Shown: positions 2,712 to 23,815 of the stretch, one piece after another
Position numbering within the stretch: the stretch's first letter is position 1
Layout: each line of letters starts with the position of its first letter
Virus record (IMG/VR): IMGVR_UViG_3300028833_000068
Span: 1-64,000 of that record
Reading direction: 5' to 3' (one strand)
DNA length: 64,000 bases
From: a virus
Lineage: Duplodnaviria > Caudoviricetes
Position numbers and translations under genes: made by a program
The notes under the pieces: generated by a model
Database searches by the model: none
The model's input: only the letters and a program-made list of their open reading frames with translations
What the model was told of the DNA's origin: nothing

Positions 2712-2850
2712 GGAAGCGTAGGTTTATTATGACTATTTTCCTCTACATGGAGAACTGTTACTATTCTTCGCAGTAAAACGCATGTGGTACTTAGCCCTTT
2801 GCCTAGTTTCAGAGTAACATAAATTATTAATCCAACTGCTGTACGCTTCC
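2712..2850 (-). ncRNA. ACAGCA-stem element 1 (structured, non-tRNA cargo)
   Basis: GGAAGCGT-ACAGCAG...ACGCTTCC terminal stem. Confidence 0.7.
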
Positions 2851-2895: not shown

Positions 2896-3045
2896 AGGAA
2901 CGACCAATTTTATGTCTTGGCTCGACATTCGCTCCTAAGAGCATAAGCAAGTGCCTCGCAAATATGATTTAACGCTTCTCTTGCTTTCATTTACTGAATC
3001 TAATACAAATGTTTTAAAATAAAGTAAATGTTGCTGTACGTTCCT
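2896..3045 (-). ncRNA. ACAGCA-stem element 2
   Basis: AGGAACG-T-ACAGCAA...CGTTCCT terminal stem; internal CATTTACT/AGTAAATG stem. Confidence 0.7.
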
Positions 3046-3724: not shown

Positions 3725-3875
3725 GGAAACATTTAATATTCTAATTGCCGTGTTTAGCCACTCCACCACCACATGTTTAATGATTAAGTTGTCATGTGGG
3801 TAGGATTCGAACCTACGAAACCGTTACGGTTAGCAATTCCCTTTTGAACATTTTTATCAATTGCTGTACGTTTCC
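3725..3875 (-). ncRNA. ACAGCA-stem element 3: circularly permuted type-II tRNA-like (YrlA-like)
   Basis: GGAAACGT-ACAGCAA...ATGTTTCC; order is V arm, T arm (GTAGG TTCGAAT CCTAC), CCACATG-linker-CATGTGG, D arm. Confidence 0.85.
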
Positions 3876-6388: not shown

Positions 6389-6491
6389 GGATGCTCTTTT
6401 TGTTTGCTAAACCACTAAGCGACTTTGCCAAACGGCAAGGGTTGGAATCGAACCAACGTAGAAACAGAAGTTTCCATTGCTGTAAGCATCC
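6389..6491 (-). ncRNA. ACAGCA-stem element 4: YrlA-like T-acceptor-D module
   Basis: GGATGCTT-ACAGCAA...GAGCATCC; GTTGG TTCGATT CCAAC, CCTTGCC-GTTT-GGCAAAG, GCTTAGTGGTTTAGC. Confidence 0.85.
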
Positions 6492-6751: not shown

Positions 6752-7123
6752 TTAATACTGTTGTTTGCTTGGAATAACACCCCTTACACCACCACGAGGA
6801 TTATCACAGTCTCCATCGTATCTTGGGATAATGTGGATATGACAGTGTTTAACTGTTTGCCCAGCACTATCCCCACAGTTAGTACCGATGTTATAACCAG
6901 TAGGATGAAACTTATCATCCAGTATCTTTTTCACATCATTCAGTCTAAAACTCAATGATTCCCTCAGCCTATCTGGTAGGTCAAAGAAGGTTTCGTGATG
7001 CTCCTTCGGAATGAGTAGCGTATGTCCAGGGGTTACAGGATAACCATCGTAAACGGCAACCCACTCTGTAGTCTCAAACAGAATTCTACTCTTATCAATA
7101 TTACAAAAAATACAATTATCCAT
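6752..7123 (-). CDS. HIT family nucleotide hydrolase
   Basis: CIFC N-terminus, PGHTLLIPK, GQTVKHCHIHIIPR histidine triad. Confidence 0.95.
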   Translation of the reverse strand: MDNCIFCNIDKSRILFETTEWVAVYDGYPVTPGHTLLIPKEHHETFFDLPDRLRESLSFRLNDVKKILDDKFHPTGYNIGTNCGDSAGQTVKHCHIHIIPRYDGDCDNPRGGVRGVIPSKQQY

Positions 7124-7221: not shown

Positions 7222-7297
7222 TGGCACAGACCCGACTCGAACGGGCACAATCCACTTCCCAAAAGTGGGCGGGTACCAATTACCGTTATACTGCGCC
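7222..7297 (-). tRNA. tRNA-Pro(TGG)
   Basis: GGCGCAG/CTGTGCC, CCACT TT-TGG-GA AGTGG, GCCCG TTCGAGT CGGGT. Confidence 0.85.
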
Positions 7298-7305
7298 AAT
7301 TATTC

Positions 7306-7424
7306 GGAAACATCTATCCACTTAGCTATCACGCCAATCTTGGTAGCGTGAGTTGGACTTGAACCAACGACCTTAAAATCCCGAATTTTATACTATATCA
7401 TTTTTTAACTTGCTGTGTGTTTCC
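7306..7424 (-). ncRNA. ACAGCA-stem element 5: circularly permuted tRNA-Pro(CGG)-like
   Basis: GGAAACAC-ACAGCAA...ATGTTTCC; TAAAA TT-CGG-GA TTTTA, AGGTC, T arm, TCACGCT-A-CCA, linker, GGCGTGA, D arm. Confidence 0.85.
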
Positions 7425-7478
7425 TTGTACTTTTGCAAAGATATATAAAATATTTTAAATTTCCAAATTTTTGACGTT

Positions 7479-8423
7479 TTATTTTTCGTTTATGTCTATT
7501 TTTGCAATAAGTGGATAATGGTCTGATGATGTTATATTAGTATCAAAAGAACATTCTTTCAATGACAATTGATATTTTGACTTATCATTATTAACATAGA
7601 ACAACTTATCACAATCTGAATGATTTGTTGGGATTGCTTCTTGAATATTTAATCCATTTATATTATTAATGGCATTAATCAAATTATCTTGAATGTTTGT
7701 TTTATCCCATTCATACTTATCGTAAGTATTTGTGTCACCAAATATGATAATTGGGTTATATGATTTGGCTTTATCTATATATTCCACCAATTGTTTTAAC
7801 TGTGATTCTCTTGCTTCCAAATCTCCAGATATATTTGGACATTTTTCTGCATCATAAAAATCAGCATCCATGTGTAACATATACACATCCAATGGAATTT
7901 CGTTATCTATAACGGTAGTATAATATCTAAATCCTTTATGAGTTAATGCATCATTAGCATGCGTAAAGTACCCATAGCACTTTTTCCATCGTTTAATGTC
8001 TTCTGTTTTTTGAATGACATCAATTCTATTTTTCTTAGCAATGATATTAATACCATCACATTTAAATCTAGGCAATGGAAAATAAGTTAGCCATTCTGTA
8101 TTTGAAAATAACTTTGAAAGGTCAAATCCTCCTGTATATTTGCCACAAGAATAATTATCTTTCAATGATGACATTAATTCATCATGATAATTAAAGTCTT
8201 CTTGAACTCCTATAATATCTGCCTCAGAGGATGATAGATATTTGCTTATGTTTTCAATATCTTCTTTCTTATTTCCATTGTCATTAATTGAAATAATTGT
8301 TGTTCCTTTAAATAACTTATATATCCAAGCAATTGGTTTCAATATCCAAGGAAGGTCATTTAAATCCAATTCACTTGGCAAACCATCAATATTATAGGTT
8401 ATTAGCTTAATTGTTTTATCCAT
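7479..8423 (-). CDS. endonuclease/exonuclease/phosphatase (EEP) family protein
   Basis: ITYNIDG, DIIGVQED, GDTN, SDHYP motifs. Confidence 0.9.
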   Translation of the reverse strand: MDKTIKLITYNIDGLPSELDLNDLPWILKPIAWIYKLFKGTTIISINDNGNKKEDIENISKYLSSSEADIIGVQEDFNYHDELMSSLKDNYSCGKYTGGFDLSKLFSNTEWLTYFPLPRFKCDGINIIAKKNRIDVIQKTEDIKRWKKCYGYFTHANDALTHKGFRYYTTVIDNEIPLDVYMLHMDADFYDAEKCPNISGDLEARESQLKQLVEYIDKAKSYNPIIIFGDTNTYDKYEWDKTNIQDNLINAINNINGLNIQEAIPTNHSDCDKLFYVNNDKSKYQLSLKECSFDTNITSSDHYPLIAKIDINEK

Positions 8424-8929: not shown

Positions 8930-9045
8930 GGAATCATTAAAACTAAGGTGGTGCAGGATTCGAACCTACGTTCTCTTGGTAAAATCCAAGGCTTTAGTCC
9001 ACTAAGCTAACCGTCTGAAGTTTATATCAATTGCTGTTAGATTCC
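8930..9045 (-). ncRNA. ACAGCA-stem element 6: whole tRNA body (UUU-like loop) inside the scaffold
   Basis: GGAATCTA-ACAGCAA...ATGATTCC; GCTT AGTGGACTA AAGC, CTTGG ATTTTA CCAAG, GTAGG TTCGAAT CCTGC. Confidence 0.8.
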
Positions 9046-9325: not shown

Positions 9326-9419
9326 TGGGAAGGGAGGGATTCGAACCCCCCTACTGCGAGACCAATACGCCCATTTGTTAATGCAGGACTGATTTACAGT
9401 CAGTTGACGTTACCTTCCC
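9326..9419 (-). tRNA. non-canonical tRNA-Tyr(GTA), D arm displaced
   Basis: GGGAAGG/CCTTCCC-A, ACTGA CT-GTA-AA TCAGT, GGGGG TTCGAAT CCCTC; only 8 nt between acceptor and anticodon arm. Confidence 0.8.
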
Positions 9420-10824: not shown

Positions 10825-10886
10825 GGGAACATTTTTAACTTATCCAAATTTGCAGTTCGATGTTAAATACATTGCTGTATGTTCCC
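10825..10886 (-). ncRNA. ACAGCA-stem element 7: minimal scaffold presenting a Cys(GCA) anticodon arm
   Basis: GGGAACAT-ACAGCAA...ATGTTCCC; TTAAC/GTTAA; TCGAA CT-GCA-AA TTTGG. Confidence 0.8.
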
Positions 10887-11856: not shown

Positions 11857-12306
11857 TTAACTTCTTGCAGCAGCTTCTTTTTCTTCTCTTTCTTTTTCAA
11901 GAATTTCTCTCCATTTATTGGTAAATTCTTGAAAGATGTCAGTACCCTTTGCGATACCATAAACCTCCTTTGTCCATCCAAAGATTGATGTTCCAGTACT
12001 ACCAATCTTAAACCAAAGTTCTCCAGTATGGCTTGCGTCTGAGATTTCCCACACTTGATGCACCATTGGCCAAGATTCTCCATTTTCGCCACGCAACACA
12101 CAGAAAACTGCATCACCGCGTTTAACATCAATTGGAACACAAGGTCGAACTAGACAATATTCACGATTGCGGATTAAAGGAGATAGACTATCCCCGAATT
12201 CCCAATGATAGAATGATTCACCGTTTTTTAAGGCTTGTTCCATTTCATATGGGTCTTGAATGACCCTCAGCCCATCAATTGTTTCAGGTTCGTTTACTAT
12301 TCTCAT
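11857..12306 (-). CDS. S24/S26 peptidase-like protein
   Basis: FGDSLSPLI...VKRGDAVF...MVHQV resembles the signal-peptidase/LexA-type fold. Confidence 0.6.
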   Translation of the reverse strand: MRIVNEPETIDGLRVIQDPYEMEQALKNGESFYHWEFGDSLSPLIRNREYCLVRPCVPIDVKRGDAVFCVLRGENGESWPMVHQVWEISDASHTGELWFKIGSTGTSIFGWTKEVYGIAKGTDIFQEFTNKWREILEKEREEKEAAARS

Positions 12307-13821: not shown

Positions 13822-15111
13822 TTACTCAATAAGCTTTTTGCCTTGAAGTTCACTAGCGATTACTCGCTGTGTTGATTCTGCAACACCAATAGCCTTCATA
13901 CGCATTTCCTTCTCAAGCTTTGCGATTTCAGCCTCGGCTGCACGTCTCTTCTCAGCGCCTTCCTTCTGTGCCTTCTGAACACCTTCTACGGTCTCTACAA
14001 GCTTCTGTGTAGATAGACGAAGGGTCTCAACATCAATCACCATGCGCTGACTCTGTTTTGCAACCTCAATGGCTTGAGTCTTCATCATTTCAGCATTCTT
14101 ACGCATCAACTCATTGGTTGTGTCAGTAACCTTAGTACCAACCTCGATGGCTTGCTTTTGGTCGAACAATGCAACAGCAAGTGAAAGCTGATTCTTCCAA
14201 AGAGGAATTGTCATAGCAATCTGAGACTCTGTGTTATTAGCATGCAAGATGTTCGTGCGCTGAATAATACGAATCTGAGTAAGTGACTGCTTAAATGCAT
14301 AACGAAGTGCAACAAGGTCACTCAAACGTTTATCAAGTGAATTCTTATATTCCTCAATGTCACTAATCTGATAATCCTCATATTCTCCAGCTCGAACTTT
14401 CATATCCTCAATGAGTTTCTCAAGTTCTTCTGACTTCATCTTACCAGCAACGATAAGGTCTTCAAGTTGGTCAACATAGTCGCAGTTGTTTTCAAACTGC
14501 TTTTGCAATAGGTTATTATCACGAATTGCAATCTGACGAGTTGCCTCAAGTTTCTTAACAATACCATCAATATTCTTCTCAATGGTATTATACTTTGCCT
14601 TAATCTGCTCAACAGAAACAACAAGTTTCTTAAGTCCAGGAATTCTCCTCAAGAACTTCTTGATTCCACTAGGTGCTTCAAGGTCATCAATATTAACCTC
14701 GTGCAACTCTCCCAATAGATTAGAAATGAGTTCTGCTGACTCAATACCAGCCTTAGAATCAAATGACTGCTTAAGGAAGTCACTTGAATAACTATCCATT
14801 GCTTTCTGAAGGTCAGAGCCATAACTTGAGATACTAGTTATGTCATTCTCATTTAAGACTGCTGCAATCTCCTTATAATAAGCCTTACGTGCTGGAGTGA
14901 GATTCGATGTATTAATCTCTCCAGTGTCCTCTACACGCTTCATTACAGCACCACTAGTGAGTTCAGCCTCTGCTTCGGCTGAAATCTCTTCTACAGCACG
15001 TCTTGTGCGAGTAGGTGACTTACGCTTTGTGGCGTTTGCAGCCCTCTTTCTAGGCTTCTTGACTTCCGTTACTTCAGCTTCTACAACTGTTGCTTTTGTT
15101 TTTTCTGCCAT
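13822..15111 (-). CDS. telA: toxic anion resistance protein (TelA/KlaA family)
   Basis: Coiled-coil protein with YGSDLQ, QIRIIQRTN, TIPLWKNQL, TTNELMRKNAEMMK signatures. Confidence 0.85.
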   Translation of the reverse strand: MAEKTKATVVEAEVTEVKKPRKRAANATKRKSPTRTRRAVEEISAEAEAELTSGAVMKRVEDTGEINTSNLTPARKAYYKEIAAVLNENDITSISSYGSDLQKAMDSYSSDFLKQSFDSKAGIESAELISNLLGELHEVNIDDLEAPSGIKKFLRRIPGLKKLVVSVEQIKAKYNTIEKNIDGIVKKLEATRQIAIRDNNLLQKQFENNCDYVDQLEDLIVAGKMKSEELEKLIEDMKVRAGEYEDYQISDIEEYKNSLDKRLSDLVALRYAFKQSLTQIRIIQRTNILHANNTESQIAMTIPLWKNQLSLAVALFDQKQAIEVGTKVTDTTNELMRKNAEMMKTQAIEVAKQSQRMVIDVETLRLSTQKLVETVEGVQKAQKEGAEKRRAAEAEIAKLEKEMRMKAIGVAESTQRVIASELQGKKLIE

Positions 15112-22135: not shown

Positions 22136-23815
22136 TTACAACTTAATGTAAGACAGAATTTCTTGGTTAAGTGCCTTGGCTACAAGTTCCTCTGCGGTAA
22201 GATTACGTACCTTTCCAGTTACCTCATCAATAACCTTCGACTCTTCTCCACATAGGGTTGTTATAATGCTTCCGTCAAATCCCGAAAGGAACGTACATCC
22301 ACTCTCGAAGGCAGTACCCTCAAAGTGGGTTACACCGTGTCTTGCAACACAATCCCACCAAATGAATTTCATATTGTCCACAAACTCACTTGGGAATACA
22401 GTCTTCAACGCCCTCTTTGAGTACTCGAAGTTTGTTTCAGTTTGGCGATAGTTGCCACCATACCAACTACGATTAGACGGGTTAAACTCCATATCGGATA
22501 CAACCAGTATGGTCTTTGGATACTGCTCCAATGGAATTTCTGGATGTGCCTTTCTAATCTTGATGATTTCATCAACTGCTGATTGGAAATTAGTTCCACC
22601 GCAGCCTACGCTAGGAAGGTTCATAATTCTATCACAGAATGACTCGCCAACCATATCGTGAGGTGTTGACACATTGTCGAACATAATAACCTTATTATGG
22701 AAAGGACCAGTATTAAGGTCAGCGAAGAACAATGCAAGCGATGATGCAATATCAGAACAATAGATGTCCTTCAATCCTCTAACAGCTTGGTTCATTGAAC
22801 CGCTAGTATCAAGACAGCACCATACATTCTCTGTAATCTTACCACCATCACGAGCCTTATCAACAAGACCCTTGAACTGTGCATCAAGAGTGTGCTTCAA
22901 CTCTATGGGAATATTTGCATTGCCACCACGATAGTAACCATACCTACTACCACGAGCCTCACGTAGGCGCTTTGCAAGTTCAAAGACATAGCCAGTGAAC
23001 TTAGCAACTGGCTGCTGCAATATCCACTCTGTATAGTTCTCTCTCAAATCGTGGTTTGAAAGGAACTTGCTTGACACAAGAAGGTTAAGAGCACGTCCTG
23101 GAATGTGATTCCAATTCAAGTCCTTATAGTTCCTTGAGCAGATAAGCTTCTGGAAATCGTGAGCCTTACCGCTAGCCTTCATCTTATTGTACTCCTTGTA
23201 GGAGATACCCATTTGACTAGCGAATGCCTTTGCGAGGTCATTGGTAATCTTTGTCCAATCAGTATTGCACTTGCTCTGAGACTTAATACGAGGCATGTAC
23301 TTCTTAATCAAGTCAACATGGGTGTCGCAAAGTAGACCTTGTGCGATTACCTCAAAGAGAGCCTTTTGGTTAATACAATTGGTATTCTCCTTGATATCGT
23401 AGAACATAATTGTCCACAAGTCCTTCCAAGAGCCAACAAGTGGCAATGCCCAAATGTTGTTATAGAACGCCTCTGGATGCTCCAATGCAACCCAAAGCAA
23501 TCTCTTGAATGACTCGTCACGAGCACCTTGTCCATTCTGAACCTTATCAGTCTCGTTGTCAGCATTCACCTTGACCTTACGAGTAACCATACGAAGGTAG
23601 AATGGGAAACGAAGAGCTGCCTCTGCATTCTCATTCCAAATATTTGCTTGTTCAGCAAACACCTCTCCAATGGCACGACCACGAAAGTTTCCAGCCTTAC
23701 CGAATTGGTCTACGATTGCAGACCCACTAGAAATTAGTGTTGTTGCCCCGTTTTCTGTCAGTGTTGTTGACTTAAAGTTTGCTGCGTTGATAAATGCGTT
23801 TGCCTTTGTGTTCAT
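22136..23815 (-). CDS. DUF2828-type (TROVE/Ro60-like) protein with C-terminal vWA domain
   Basis: TENGA N-terminal motif, GQGARD, GSWKDL, KYMPR, MIDAS DTSGSM, GGTNFQ, VVSDMEF. Confidence 0.8.
   Translation of the reverse strand: MNTKANAFINAANFKSTTLTENGATTLISSGSAIVDQFGKAGNFRGRAIGEVFAEQANIWNENAEAALRFPFYLRMVTRKVKVNADNETDKVQNGQGARDESFKRLLWVALEHPEAFYNNIWALPLVGSWKDLWTIMFYDIKENTNCINQKALFEVIAQGLLCDTHVDLIKKYMPRIKSQSKCNTDWTKITNDLAKAFASQMGISYKEYNKMKASGKAHDFQKLICSRNYKDLNWNHIPGRALNLLVSSKFLSNHDLRENYTEWILQQPVAKFTGYVFELAKRLREARGSRYGYYRGGNANIPIELKHTLDAQFKGLVDKARDGGKITENVWCCLDTSGSMNQAVRGLKDIYCSDIASSLALFFADLNTGPFHNKVIMFDNVSTPHDMVGESFCDRIMNLPSVGCGGTNFQSAVDEIIKIRKAHPEIPLEQYPKTILVVSDMEFNPSNRSWYGGNYRQTETNFEYSKRALKTVFPSEFVDNMKFIWWDCVARHGVTHFEGTAFESGCTFLSGFDGSIITTLCGEESKVIDEVTGKVRNLTAEELVAKALNQEILSYIKL

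What the first reader, a model, noticed from the sequence alone, without database searches (positions are those of the whole stretch)
7306..7424. Complete circularly permuted tRNA-Pro(CGG)-like gene with internal CCA
Order on the minus strand: (ATAGT-A), anticodon arm TAAAA TT-CGG-GA TTTTA, V loop AGGTC, T arm GTTGG TTCAAGT CCAAC, 3' acceptor TCACGCT-A-CCA, 5-nt linker, 5' acceptor GGCGTGA, TA, GCTA AGTGGA TAG. The loop has the same TT-NGG-GA form as the two tRNA-Pro(TGG) genes nearby. All parts of a tRNA are present, broken in the D arm. Permuted tRNA genes are established in some algae and archaea; I do not know them from phages. It could fold as a mimic, or be cut at the linker to yield a two-piece chargeable tRNA.
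Basis: partly seen in the sequence, partly recalled or inferred. Interest (0 to 1): 0.85.

Follow-up and report, generated by a model that had tools for sequence, protein, structure and literature searches.

The report
Phage Y-like RNA carrying permuted tRNA
A giant phage encodes a 119-base small RNA holding every part of a tRNA in rearranged order on a conserved "handle"; it most likely imitates a tRNA as partner of the phage's Ro60-like protein rather than acting as a normal proline tRNA.

Summary
Window 7306-7424 (minus strand) holds an anticodon arm, variable loop, T arm, a 7-bp acceptor stem closed by a 9-nt loop, then U8-A9 and the 5' D-stem strand.

Six orthologues in related about 300-400 kb phage contigs keep these helices: 99.5% of cells paired, 8 pairs with compensatory changes.

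The reading as a tRNA-Pro(CGG) gene with a meaningful internal CCA is only partly supported:
- The anticodon is CGG only here (GAU x3, AAU x2, CAU elsewhere).
- CCA occurs in 2 of 7 and the acceptor loop varies from 4 to 17 nt.
- The most conserved part is a non-tRNA handle: a 7-bp closing stem plus unpaired YACAGCAAGU.

The same handle carries other cargoes (anticodon hairpin alone; T arm + acceptor hairpin + D arm) in 5-22 hits per related genome, mostly handle RNAs, within the tRNA arrays.

The phage encodes a DUF2828/vWA protein whose model matches only Ro60/TROVE structures. In two unrelated cultured phages, such RNAs lie directly after the DUF2828 gene.

Best reading: a Y-RNA-like (YrlA-type) tRNA mimic, opened in the D region and keeping a free anticodon arm.

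The scan had already met the Ile(GAU) orthologue on other DNA. No description was found in Rfam or in the papers searched.

The parts
7436..7467 (-). Promoter-like site: TTTG (7467-7464), 20-nt spacer, TAnnTTTG (7443-7436). The expected start lies a few bases before the closing stem.
   Evidence: Read. The extended motif TAT[AC]TTTGCAAA occurs only 13 times in the 171-kb record, including 48 nt upstream of the Ro-like gene. The same motif lies just upstream of the orthologues in L006, L017, L024 and L025, and of the short handle RNA in L013. That this is the Bacteroidota promoter type is my own knowledge.
7418..7424 (-). Handle, 5' strand of the closing stem (GGAAACA)
   Evidence: Pairs with 7306-7312. 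Pairing probability is 0.99 in all 7 orthologues. It is invariant among orthologues but covaries in paralogues: 6 of 7 pairs change on both sides in A5.
7408..7417 (-). Handle motif, unpaired (CACAGCAAGU): candidate protein-binding site
   Evidence: ACAGCAA is invariant in the 7 orthologues. ACAGCA is kept in paralogues with other stems. CAGCAA is kept in RNAs next to DUF2828 genes of unrelated phages. Infernal aligns it to the GNCGAA position of YrlA in KP2025.
7396..7407 (-). A/U-rich linker between the handle and the tRNA body
   Evidence: Variable in sequence and length among orthologues.
7391..7395 (-). UAGU (tRNA positions 22-25, 3' strand of the D stem) plus A26
   Evidence: Can pair with GCUA at 7323-7326. 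27 of 28 cells are paired in the orthologues but there is no compensatory change. Thermodynamic support is weak.
7374..7390 (-). Anticodon-type arm: 5-bp stem and 7-nt loop UUCGGGA (CGG at 7381-7383, G37)
   Evidence: 3 stem pairs have compensatory changes. The loop keeps U33, R37 and A38 in all orthologues while the triplet varies.
7369..7373 (-). Variable loop AGGUC (positions 44-48; C48 can pair with G15)
   Evidence: AGGUC/GGGUC in all 7 orthologues.
7352..7368 (-). T arm (5 bp, loop UUCAAGU with U54, U55, C56, A58)
   Evidence: 2 compensatory pairs and 100% paired. Part of the Rfam tRNA and YrlA matches.
7329..7351 (-). Acceptor stem closed into a hairpin: 3' strand 7345-7351, loop A-CCA-AGAUU 7336-7344, 5' strand 7329-7335
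   Evidence: 3 compensatory pairs and 100% paired. Pairing probability is 0.96-0.99. The loop is 4-17 nt in the orthologues. It begins N73-C74 and ends in U(-1), like the phage's ordinary pre-tRNAs.
7313..7328 (-). U8-A9, D-stem 5' strand GCUA, D-loop piece AGUGGAUAGA (A14, G15, G18, G19)
   Evidence: UAGCUAAG is kept in 6 of 7 orthologues (UAGCUCAG in L024), and GG in 5 of 7. A local alternative hairpin GCUA/UAG exists here only.
7306..7312 (-). Handle, 3' strand of the closing stem (UGUUUCC), preceded by an A-rich stretch
7222..7297 (-). Next gene in the transcript: an aberrant tRNA-Pro(UGG)-like cloverleaf 8 nt downstream. RNase P cutting at its 5' end would set the 3' end of the element (inferred).
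   Evidence: Cloverleaf in the MFE fold. Not called by ARAGORN or Rfam. Orthologues are likewise followed by tRNA-Pro(UGG).
22136..23815 (-). Candidate protein partner: a 559-aa DUF2828 + DUF7788/vWA protein with a Ro60-like fold
   Evidence: Pfam match. The top 11 Foldseek PDB hits are all Ro60/TROVE, E 4e-6 to 3e-4, TM 0.30-0.43. tblastn hits include mycobacteriophage 'Ro-like RNA binding protein'. It is present in all complete relatives.

Best explanation
The element is a discrete small RNA of about 119 nt, transcribed with the tRNA array. It has two modules.

Module 1 is a handle. It consists of a 7-bp stem formed by the two ends, an unpaired YACAGCAAGU just inside the 5' strand, and an A-rich stretch just inside the 3' strand.

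Module 2 is a complete tRNA body whose acceptor stem is closed by a loop. Its chain is opened in the D loop (or at position 25/26), where the handle is attached.

Shown here:
- the helices and their covariation;
- the conservation of the handle;
- the multi-copy family with varied tRNA-derived cargo;
- a Ro60-like protein gene in the genome;
- handle RNAs lying directly next to DUF2828 genes in unrelated phages.

Inferred:
- The handle is the binding site of the phage's Ro60-like DUF2828/vWA protein, by analogy with Y RNA stems and their GNCGAA motif.
- The tRNA body folds into the L shape, because all tertiary-contact nucleotides are present.
- The tRNA body serves as the effector module, presented to a tRNA-recognising factor: tRNA enzymes, RtcB repair, or host tRNA-cutting defence nucleases, as bait.

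Because the acceptor stem has 7 bp with an N73-C74 start and U(-1) end to its loop, RNase P cleavage and CCA completion into a two-piece RNA is plausible (roughly 40%). This happens in vivo for M. smegmatis YrlA. I think charging and use in translation is unlikely.
For: - Structure: 99.5% of cells paired and 8 compensatory pairs in 7 orthologues, against 35-55% paired in slid controls. In the wider model-fitted alignment all five helices covary, including the closing stem.
- Handle: a 17-nt exact motif is shared with 12 related phage contigs; about nine further exact matches look like chance hits in coding sequence. All copies in the own genome lie on the tRNA strand.
- Family: covariance model R1 gives 5-22 hits per related genome in the tRNA arrays; most span the whole model, and the partial ones are ordinary tRNAs.
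- Varied cargo on the same handle: an anticodon hairpin only (window 10825-10886, L009, L013, L019, L023); T arm + acceptor hairpin + D arm (window 3725-3875 and 6389-6491); a different permutation point in L066.
- Rfam YrlA gives sub-threshold but significant hits on paralogues: 31.7 bits in the window, 41.4 in L002, 39.2 in L006.
- Ro-like protein: Pfam DUF2828 + vWA; Foldseek top 11 hits are all Ro60/TROVE, including phage phiLo Ro60; homology to annotated mycobacteriophage Ro-like proteins; present in all 6 complete relatives.
- Independent co-location: 5 tandem handle RNAs start 9 nt after the DUF2828 stop in Leptolyngbya phage Lbo-JY46. At least 5 lie downstream of DUF2828 in Klebsiella phage KP2025, two of them scoring 40 and 34 bits on YrlA.
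- RNA-repair context: relatives carry RtcB between the RNA array and the Ro-like gene, as in bacterial rsr-yrlA-rtcB loci (PMC4201824, PMC7790460).
- Against a decoding role: the anticodon differs among orthologues, and canonical tRNA-Ile(GAU) and tRNA-Met(CAU) coexist with the GAU and CAU versions.
Against: - No expression or binding data exist.
- This element scores only 18.1 bits on Rfam YrlA (threshold 69).
- The handle motif is not the published GNCGAAN0-1G.
- In this genome the Ro-like gene is 14.7 kb away, not adjacent.
- No RtcB, RNA ligase or CCA enzyme was found in the 171-kb (53% complete) record.
- The protein model is mediocre (pLDDT 65, TM 0.30-0.43).
- Co-occurrence among related jumbo phages is not independent evidence.
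- Loops obey real-tRNA rules (G37 with NGG here, A37 with NAU elsewhere; U33 and A38 invariant).
- The acceptor loop mimics the phage's own pre-tRNA trailer and leader. Both of these last points would also fit a processed, possibly chargeable RNA.
- The D stem has no compensatory change and is weakly predicted.
Confidence: 0.6

Rival explanations
1. It is a two-piece working tRNA. RNase P cuts 5' of G1 in the acceptor loop. The 3' trailer is trimmed and CCA kept or completed. The two pieces stay together through the acceptor, D and closing stems. The RNA is charged (here by ProRS, via G35, G36, A73) and decodes CCG.
For: - The acceptor stem has 7 bp, discriminator A, and a loop beginning C74 (CCA here and in L025) and ending U(-1), as in the phage's ordinary pre-tRNAs.
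- All tertiary nucleotides are present.
- The loop has U33 and G37 with an NGG anticodon, and A37 with NAU in the orthologues.
- M. smegmatis YrlA is cut by RNase P and receives CCA in vivo.
- Relatives encode a CCA-adding-type enzyme.
- No canonical tRNA-Pro(CGG) is present in the window.
Against: - The anticodon changes amino-acid identity among orthologues without matching acceptor changes.
- Canonical tRNAs with the same anticodons coexist in relatives.
- About 45 nt of conserved non-tRNA handle protrudes from the elbow.
- The same handle carries cargo that cannot be a tRNA.
- The L006 loop is only 4 nt.
- G1.U72 here is not the usual Pro identity pair (own knowledge).
Confidence: 0.12
2. 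It is a Ro-independent decoy. The RNA acts alone as bait or sponge for host tRNA-targeting defence nucleases or tRNA-modifying enzymes. The handle only stabilises the ends against exonucleases.
For: - Anticodon triplets change fast while loop geometry is fixed.
- Short family members present only an anticodon-type hairpin, often CUUUUAA (Lys-UUU-like), in three unrelated phage lineages.
- The closed acceptor would resist charging.
Against: - A mere stabilising stem would not need an invariant unpaired ACAGCAA.
- That motif travels with DUF2828 genes across unrelated phages.
- No nuclease target is identified.
Confidence: 0.15
3. It is a true permuted tRNA gene. The handle is a processing signal, its flanks are cut, the ends are joined by RtcB into a circle, and the circle is then opened at the acceptor loop to give a contiguous tRNA.
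For: The order of parts matches permuted tRNA genes. RtcB is encoded by all 5 complete relatives tested.
Against: - There is no bulge-helix-bulge motif: the closing stem is 7 continuous pairs.
- No tRNA splicing endonuclease is found in the own record or in 4 relatives.
- No RtcB is found in the own record.
- The handle is more conserved than the cargo and occurs with non-tRNA cargo.
Confidence: 0.05
4. It is debris: a decayed tRNA pseudogene followed by the 5' fragment of a tandem copy, with no function of its own.
For: Rfam reads 7344-7414 as a weak linear tRNA (29.5 bits). Tandem duplication is a plausible origin.
Against: - Compensatory changes occur in three helices.
- The handle is kept exactly across phages whose Ro-like proteins are only about 50% identical, though those distant phages carry it with other cargo.
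- The element has its own promoter.
- The helices are conserved across the 7 orthologues.
Confidence: 0.03

Closest known systems
YrlA-type bacterial and phage Y RNAs bound by Ro60/Rsr (Rfam RF02553; Chen et al. 2014, PMC4201824; Wang et al. 2018, 10.1101/312249)
   Same: - A terminal stem with a short conserved purine-rich motif near the 5' end.
- A tRNA-like module with a T arm, an acceptor-like stem closed by a loop, U8-A9 and D-arm sequences with tRNA tertiary nucleotides.
- Encoded in genomes that have a Ro60-type protein, with RtcB in relatives.
- Known in tRNA-rich phages.
   Different: - The Rfam score is far below threshold (18 vs 69 bits).
- The motif is YACAGCAAGU, not GNCGAAN0-1G.
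- The handle is attached in the D loop (or at position 25/26) instead of replacing the anticodon arm, so a free 5-bp/7-nt anticodon arm is present.
- The partner is a DUF2828 protein that the TROVE Pfam model does not detect.
- Many copies are scattered in the tRNA array rather than one or two beside rsr.
M. smegmatis YrlA processing (PMC4201824, section read)
   Same: A 7-bp acceptor-like stem closed by a loop. That RNA is cut by RNase P at the tRNA +1 site and gains CCA in vivo, and both halves stay bound to Rsr.
   Different: Processing has not been tested here. CCA is already encoded here and in L025. An anticodon arm is present here.
Circularly permuted tRNA genes of Cyanidioschyzon merolae and some archaea (own knowledge; mentioned in PMC3400036 and PMC4238349)
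   Same: The 3' half lies upstream of the 5' half, and the acceptor ends are joined by a short linker. A D-loop junction is one of the known break points.
   Different: Those use a BHB motif, a splicing endonuclease and a ligase to restore a normal-size tRNA, and the anticodon identity is conserved. Here there is no BHB, no endonuclease, a conserved 45-nt handle, and a varying anticodon.
Two-piece (permuted) tmRNA genes of alpha-proteobacteria and cyanobacteria (own knowledge; Rfam clan CL00001)
   Same: A bacterial example of a permuted tRNA-like gene with an internal CCA, giving a two-piece RNA.
   Different: There is no tag reading frame or pseudoknots here. ARAGORN and the Rfam tmRNA models find nothing at this place. 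tmRNA lacks an anticodon arm.
Thermus phage phiLo Ro60 with Yrl1/Yrl2 (PMC12135203; PDB 9KOP, 9L5Y)
   Same: A phage-encoded Ro60 ring that binds phage-encoded Y-like RNAs. It is the best structural match of the window's DUF2828 protein model.
   Different: Those RNAs carry the CGAA motif, lie next to the gene, and are not described as tRNA-like.

Membership tests
YrlA (Rfam RF02553) | Covariance-model score at or above the gathering threshold (69 bits) | tested here: not met
   18.1 bits, E 0.42 in a 501-nt search. Paralogues reach 31.7-41.4 bits.
YrlA (Rfam RF02553) | tRNA-like domain: T arm, acceptor-like stem closed by a loop, D-arm sequence, and tRNA tertiary nucleotides | tested here: met
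   The T arm and the closed 7-bp acceptor stem covary. U8, A14, G15:C48, G18 G19, U54-A58 and C56 can be read. The D stem is possible but lacks compensatory support.
YrlA (Rfam RF02553) | GNCGAAN0-1G motif near the 5' end within the terminal stem region | tested here: not met
   The motif here is YACAGCAAGU. In KP2025, Infernal aligns CAGCAA to the GGCGAA position, so it may be a diverged equivalent.
YrlA (Rfam RF02553) | The stem in the place of the anticodon stem leads to the Ro-binding module (no free anticodon arm) | tested here: not met
   A free 5-bp/7-nt-loop arm with 3 compensatory pairs occupies the anticodon-arm position. The handle leaves from the D region.
YrlA (Rfam RF02553) | Encoded beside a Ro60/Rsr gene | tested here: inconclusive
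   The Ro-like DUF2828 gene is on the same strand, 14.7 kb away. Handle RNAs lie immediately downstream of the DUF2828 gene in Lbo-JY46 and within a few hundred bases in KP2025.
YrlA (Rfam RF02553) | Bound by Ro60/Rsr in vivo | not testable with these tools
   Needs immunoprecipitation or EMSA.
Circularly permuted tRNA gene (algal/archaeal type) | 3' half upstream of 5' half, acceptor ends joined by a linker | tested here: met
Circularly permuted tRNA gene (algal/archaeal type) | Bulge-helix-bulge motif at the transcript ends, and a splicing endonuclease | tested here: not met
   The closing stem is 7 continuous pairs with a one-sided loop. PF01974 is absent from the own record and from 4 relatives.
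Circularly permuted tRNA gene (algal/archaeal type) | Conserved anticodon/amino-acid identity among orthologues | tested here: not met
   CGG, GAU x3, AAU x2, CAU.
Ordinary (linear) tRNA gene | 5' and 3' acceptor strands at the two ends, pairing and covarying | tested here: not met
   There is no ARAGORN call. Rfam's 5' strand AGCAAGU pairs 4/7 and stays fixed while the 3' strand changes.
Two-piece tmRNA | tRNA-like domain plus a tag reading frame, detected by ARAGORN or Rfam tmRNA models | tested here: not met
   No tmRNA call at this place.

The most novel reading that the evidence does not exclude
Large phages of several unrelated lineages run a modular RNP system. A Ro60-like DUF2828 ring binds a common ACAGCAA handle. 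The handle displays interchangeable tRNA-derived cargo, from bare anticodon hairpins to whole cloverleaves with evolving anticodons.

This element would be the whole-tRNA version. Its role would be to intercept host tRNA-cutting defence nucleases, to deliver damaged tRNA to RtcB, or, after RNase P cleavage, to act as a two-piece chargeable tRNA held on the ring.
Probability: 0.25. Interest if true: 0.85.

Novelty: new variant of a known kind. Interest (0 to 1): 0.65.

Why it matters
Y RNAs with tRNA-like domains are known, but what the tRNA mimicry is for remains open. This RNA makes the question sharper in four ways:
- The mimic is a whole cloverleaf with a free anticodon arm whose triplet changes between close relatives.
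- The same handle carries graded cargo.
- The phages hold many copies inside their tRNA arrays, beside a Ro-like protein and, in relatives, RtcB.
- The handle RNAs also sit next to DUF2828 genes in cultured Klebsiella and Leptolyngbya phages.

That last point gives a tractable system to test whether phage Ro-like RNPs act in the conflict over tRNA cleavage and repair.

It also shows that tRNA finders miss or mis-call such genes, so phage tRNA counts and "pseudo-tRNA" annotations in these arrays need care.

Tried and rejected
- blastn of the region against GenBank phages found no match.
- Single-sequence folding gave non-significant z-scores of -0.8 and -1.2.
- The MFE proposes a long-range pairing of the anticodon-loop region with the 3' flank. 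That pairing exists only in this phage, so I rejected it.
- The linear tRNA reading from Rfam is rejected by covariation.
- A T-arm pattern scan of viral contigs was unspecific. It returned over 118 loci, mostly real tRNAs; only 6 had ACAGCA upstream, and 1 of those was a normal tRNA.
- About nine of the 23 exact handle-motif hits were chance matches in coding sequence.
- My naive scan for "7-bp stem + ACAGCA" gives many chance hits outside the tRNA array and is not evidence by itself.
- The TROVE Pfam model finds nothing in the own record or in relatives. A PDB sequence search with the DUF2828 protein found nothing. Only fold comparison and tblastn link it to Ro60.
- No RtcB, RNA ligase or CCA enzyme was found in the own incomplete record.
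- Literature searches for DUF2828, for permuted tRNA in phages and for Ro-like phage proteins found no description of these RNAs.
- MAFFT misaligned L098, so it was left out of the seed alignment.

Full report
**Setting**

The window is the first 64 kb of a 171-kb IMG/VR virus record estimated to be 53% complete. Its first 11 kb hold a minus-strand tRNA array with 14 ARAGORN genes. Related records are 295-412 kb phage genomes. A promoter-like TTTG-N20-TAnnTTTG sits just upstream of the element. As far as I know this is the Bacteroidota type.

**The observation**

On the minus strand from 7424 to 7306 the sequence reads, in order:
- a 7-nt strand, GGAAACA;
- an unpaired CACAGCAAGU;
- an A/U linker;
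- UAGU-A;
- a 5-bp arm with the 7-nt loop UUCGGGA;
- AGGUC;
- a T arm with loop UUCAAGU;
- a 7-nt 3' acceptor strand;
- the loop A-CCA-AGAUU;
- the complementary 5' acceptor strand;
- UA, GCUA, AGUGGAUAGA;
- UGUUUCC, which pairs with the first 7 nt.

ARAGORN calls nothing here. Rfam's tRNA model reaches 29.5 bits at 7344-7414 by using AGCAAGU as a poor 5' acceptor strand. Rfam's YrlA model gives a weak 18.1-bit match over the T arm, acceptor hairpin and D sequence.

**Orthologues**

The flanking EEP-nuclease gene and two DNA motifs brought in related contigs. Six of them carry the same element in the same neighbourhood: nuclease gene, element, tRNA-Pro(UGG).

On the 7-sequence alignment A4, the structure is closing stem, D stem formed between the upstream UAGY and the downstream GCUA, anticodon arm, T arm and acceptor hairpin. 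Results:
- 99.5% of cells are paired, against 35-55% when partners are slid.
- 8 pairs change on both sides (anticodon arm 3, T arm 2, acceptor 3).
- 0 of 500 shuffles reach that.

The acceptor stem switches wholesale from UCACGCU/GGCGUGA to CCUCCCC/GGGGAGG while AGCAAGU stays fixed. That disposes of the linear-tRNA reading.

The D stem is the weak point. It is almost always pairable but has no compensatory change, and its predicted probability is low. A local D hairpin exists here and in L024 and L098 only. The break is therefore in the D loop in five orthologues, at 25/26 in L024, and ambiguous here.

When the handle is trimmed and the two parts are rejoined, ARAGORN calls all seven as tRNAs: Pro(CGG), Ile(GAU) x3, Ile(AAU) x2 and Met(CAU).

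**What is not conserved**

- The triplet varies, while U33, purine-37 and A38 are fixed.
- CCA follows the discriminator only here and in L025.
- The acceptor loop is 4, 9, 16 or 17 nt.
- None of the phage's 14 ordinary tRNA genes encodes CCA. Most read N73-C-A-A-A and have U at -1.

The acceptor loops of the element and its paralogues start and end in the same way. This could reflect ancestry from a tandem tRNA duplication, or retained processing signals.

**The handle and its family**

A covariance model from A4 (R1) gives 5-22 hits in each of 17 related records. Nearly all lie inside the tRNA arrays; most span the whole model, and the partial matches are ordinary tRNAs. Paralogues have other closing stems (for example GGGUACA/UGUACCC, AGAUACG/CGUAUCU, GGAUGCU/AGCAUCC) but keep ACAGCA just inside the 5' strand and an A-rich run just inside the 3' strand.

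In the model-fitted alignment A5, 6 of the 7 closing-stem pairs change on both sides. Because the alignment is fitted to the model, this leans towards the structure.

Cargo differs between members:
- only an anticodon-type hairpin (window 10825-10886 with CUGCAAA; L009, L019 and L023 with CUUUUAA);
- T arm + acceptor hairpin + D arm, as in YrlA (window 3725-3875 and 6389-6491; YrlA 31.7 bits on the latter, 41.4 and 39.2 bits in L002 and L006);
- whole cloverleaves opened at other points (L098; L066, opened between the T arm and the 3' acceptor strand).

A handle that is more conserved than its cargo points to a scaffold with a common binding partner, not to a tRNA-maturation signal.

**Candidate partner**

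My tests gave the following:
- Pfam gives DUF2828 + DUF7788/vWA.
- An AlphaFold model from 25 sequences has pLDDT 65.
- Its top 11 Foldseek PDB matches are all Ro60/TROVE proteins, led by the Ro60 of Thermus phage phiLo (E 3.9e-6), although TM-scores are only 0.30-0.43.
- tblastn finds homologues in 453 GenBank phages, including mycobacteriophage genes annotated "Ro-like RNA binding protein".
- The gene is in all six complete relatives, but these are kin, so that counts for little.

Independent evidence is stronger:
- In Leptolyngbya phage Lbo-JY46, five tandem units of the form "stem - YACAGCAAA - ... - stem" begin 9 nt after the DUF2828 stop codon. Two of them present a CUUUUAA hairpin loop.
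- In Klebsiella phage KP2025, the DUF2828 gene lies inside the tRNA array and is followed by at least five such units. Two score 40.1 and 34.3 bits on YrlA and 36-39 bits on R1.
- There Infernal aligns CAGCAA with the GGCGAA of the YrlA consensus.

All five complete relatives tested also encode RtcB, placed between the RNA array and the Ro-like gene, and a CCA-adding-type enzyme. The window's own incomplete record shows neither. The same strong promoter motif precedes both the element and the Ro-like gene.

**Comparison with the literature**

Chen et al. 2014 (PMC4201824) report the following:
- They define YrlA as a Ro60-bound RNA with T, acceptor-like, D and sometimes V stem-loops and a GNCGAAN0-1G motif.
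- They find it in 22 phages.
- They show that M. smegmatis YrlA, the one with a 7-bp acceptor stem, is cut by RNase P and receives CCA in vivo, with both halves staying on Rsr.

Wang et al. 2018 (10.1101/312249) show that YrlA is a close tRNA mimic lacking a free CCA end, with the anticodon-stem equivalent leading to the Ro module. Phage Ro60 with Y-like RNAs is also described for phiLo (PMC12135203) and noted for jumbo phages (PMC7824862).

The present RNA works like these but fails several membership tests: score, motif, attachment point and adjacency. I found no description of the ACAGCAA handle, of its link to DUF2828, or of a Y-like RNA with a free anticodon arm.

**Decoding or mimicry**

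Points for a processed, perhaps chargeable RNA:
- a 7-bp acceptor stem with A73;
- a trailer- and leader-like loop;
- all tertiary nucleotides present;
- G37 accompanying the NGG anticodon here, while NAU orthologues have A37.

Points against:
- identity jumps among orthologues without acceptor changes;
- canonical tRNA-Ile(GAU) and tRNA-Met(CAU) coexist in relatives carrying the GAU and CAU versions;
- a conserved 45-nt handle protrudes from the elbow;
- there is no splicing endonuclease;
- the handle occurs on cargo that cannot be a tRNA.

I put the Y-RNA-like mimic at 0.6, a Ro-independent decoy at 0.15, a split working tRNA at 0.12, a ligated permuted tRNA at 0.05 and debris at 0.03.

**Earlier scan notes**

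After I had reached this reading, the scan's index showed that an orthologue (the Ile-GAU form with ACCA) had been followed up on another genome with the same conclusion (e1-5642039). The family and the protein had also been noted on this window.

- the comparative series of anticodons, including this CGG/G37 form;
- the covariation counts;
- the fold match of the protein;
- the RtcB and CCA-enzyme context;
- the independent co-location in two cultured phages.

Noticed in passing
window 7222-7297 (-): A tRNA-Pro(UGG)-like cloverleaf 8 nt after the element. It has a 6-nt connector between the acceptor and D stems and a GGUA/UACC D stem. Neither ARAGORN nor Rfam calls it. Orthologous positions in relatives hold a normal tRNA-Pro(UGG).
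   Followed up: partly
window 8945-9016 (-); also L002/L003 3732-3803, L188 6357-6427, L190 7607-7678: A conserved tRNA-like gene that ARAGORN reports as 'tRNA-???' with a 2-nt anticodon (a 6-nt loop). In the window it lies just after an ACAGCAAU motif (8962-9044), so it may be another handle RNA.
   Followed up: no
window 2713-2849, 2896-3045, 3725-3875, 6389-6491, 10825-10886 (all -): Paralogous handle RNAs (7-bp closing stem + ACAGCA) with different cargo. 6389-6491 matches Rfam YrlA at 31.7 bits. 10825-10886 carries only an anticodon-type hairpin with loop CUGCAAA.
   Followed up: partly
L186 6924-7275 (+), Leptolyngbya phage Lbo-JY46 PP438436.1: Five tandem handle RNAs directly after the DUF2828 gene, separated by UGAUAAG. 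None is annotated in the record.
   Followed up: partly
L185 13518-14070 (+), Klebsiella phage KP2025 PP919962.1: At least five handle RNAs after a DUF2828 gene embedded in the tRNA array. The record also annotates a 432-nt 'tRNA-Arg' running into the DUF2828 CDS, whereas Rfam sees a normal 72-nt tRNA at 11872-11943.
   Followed up: partly
L066 5393-5505 (+): A handle RNA whose tRNA body is permuted at a different point: acceptor hairpin first, then the D arm, the anticodon arm (UAU) and the T arm, with the handle joined between the T arm and the 3' acceptor strand.
   Followed up: partly
L187 1578-1654, L189 3507-3598, L189 8263-8569: Relatives carry tRNAs with a CUA anticodon (amber-suppressor type, reported by ARAGORN as Pyl). 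One relative carries a tmRNA gene inside the array.
   Followed up: no
window 7432-7443, 22030, 23863 and 10 other sites of the record: A strong promoter-like motif, TAT[AC]TTTGCAAA, occurs only 13 times in 171 kb. It precedes both the element and the Ro-like gene.
   Followed up: partly
window 9326-9419 (-): An Rfam tRNA match (34.4 bits) that ARAGORN does not call.
   Followed up: no
window 7479-8423 (-) and 6752-7123 (-): The element is flanked by an endonuclease/exonuclease/phosphatase-family gene (sub-threshold Pfam hits) and a HIT-family hydrolase gene. A TelA gene lies at 13822-15111.
   Followed up: no
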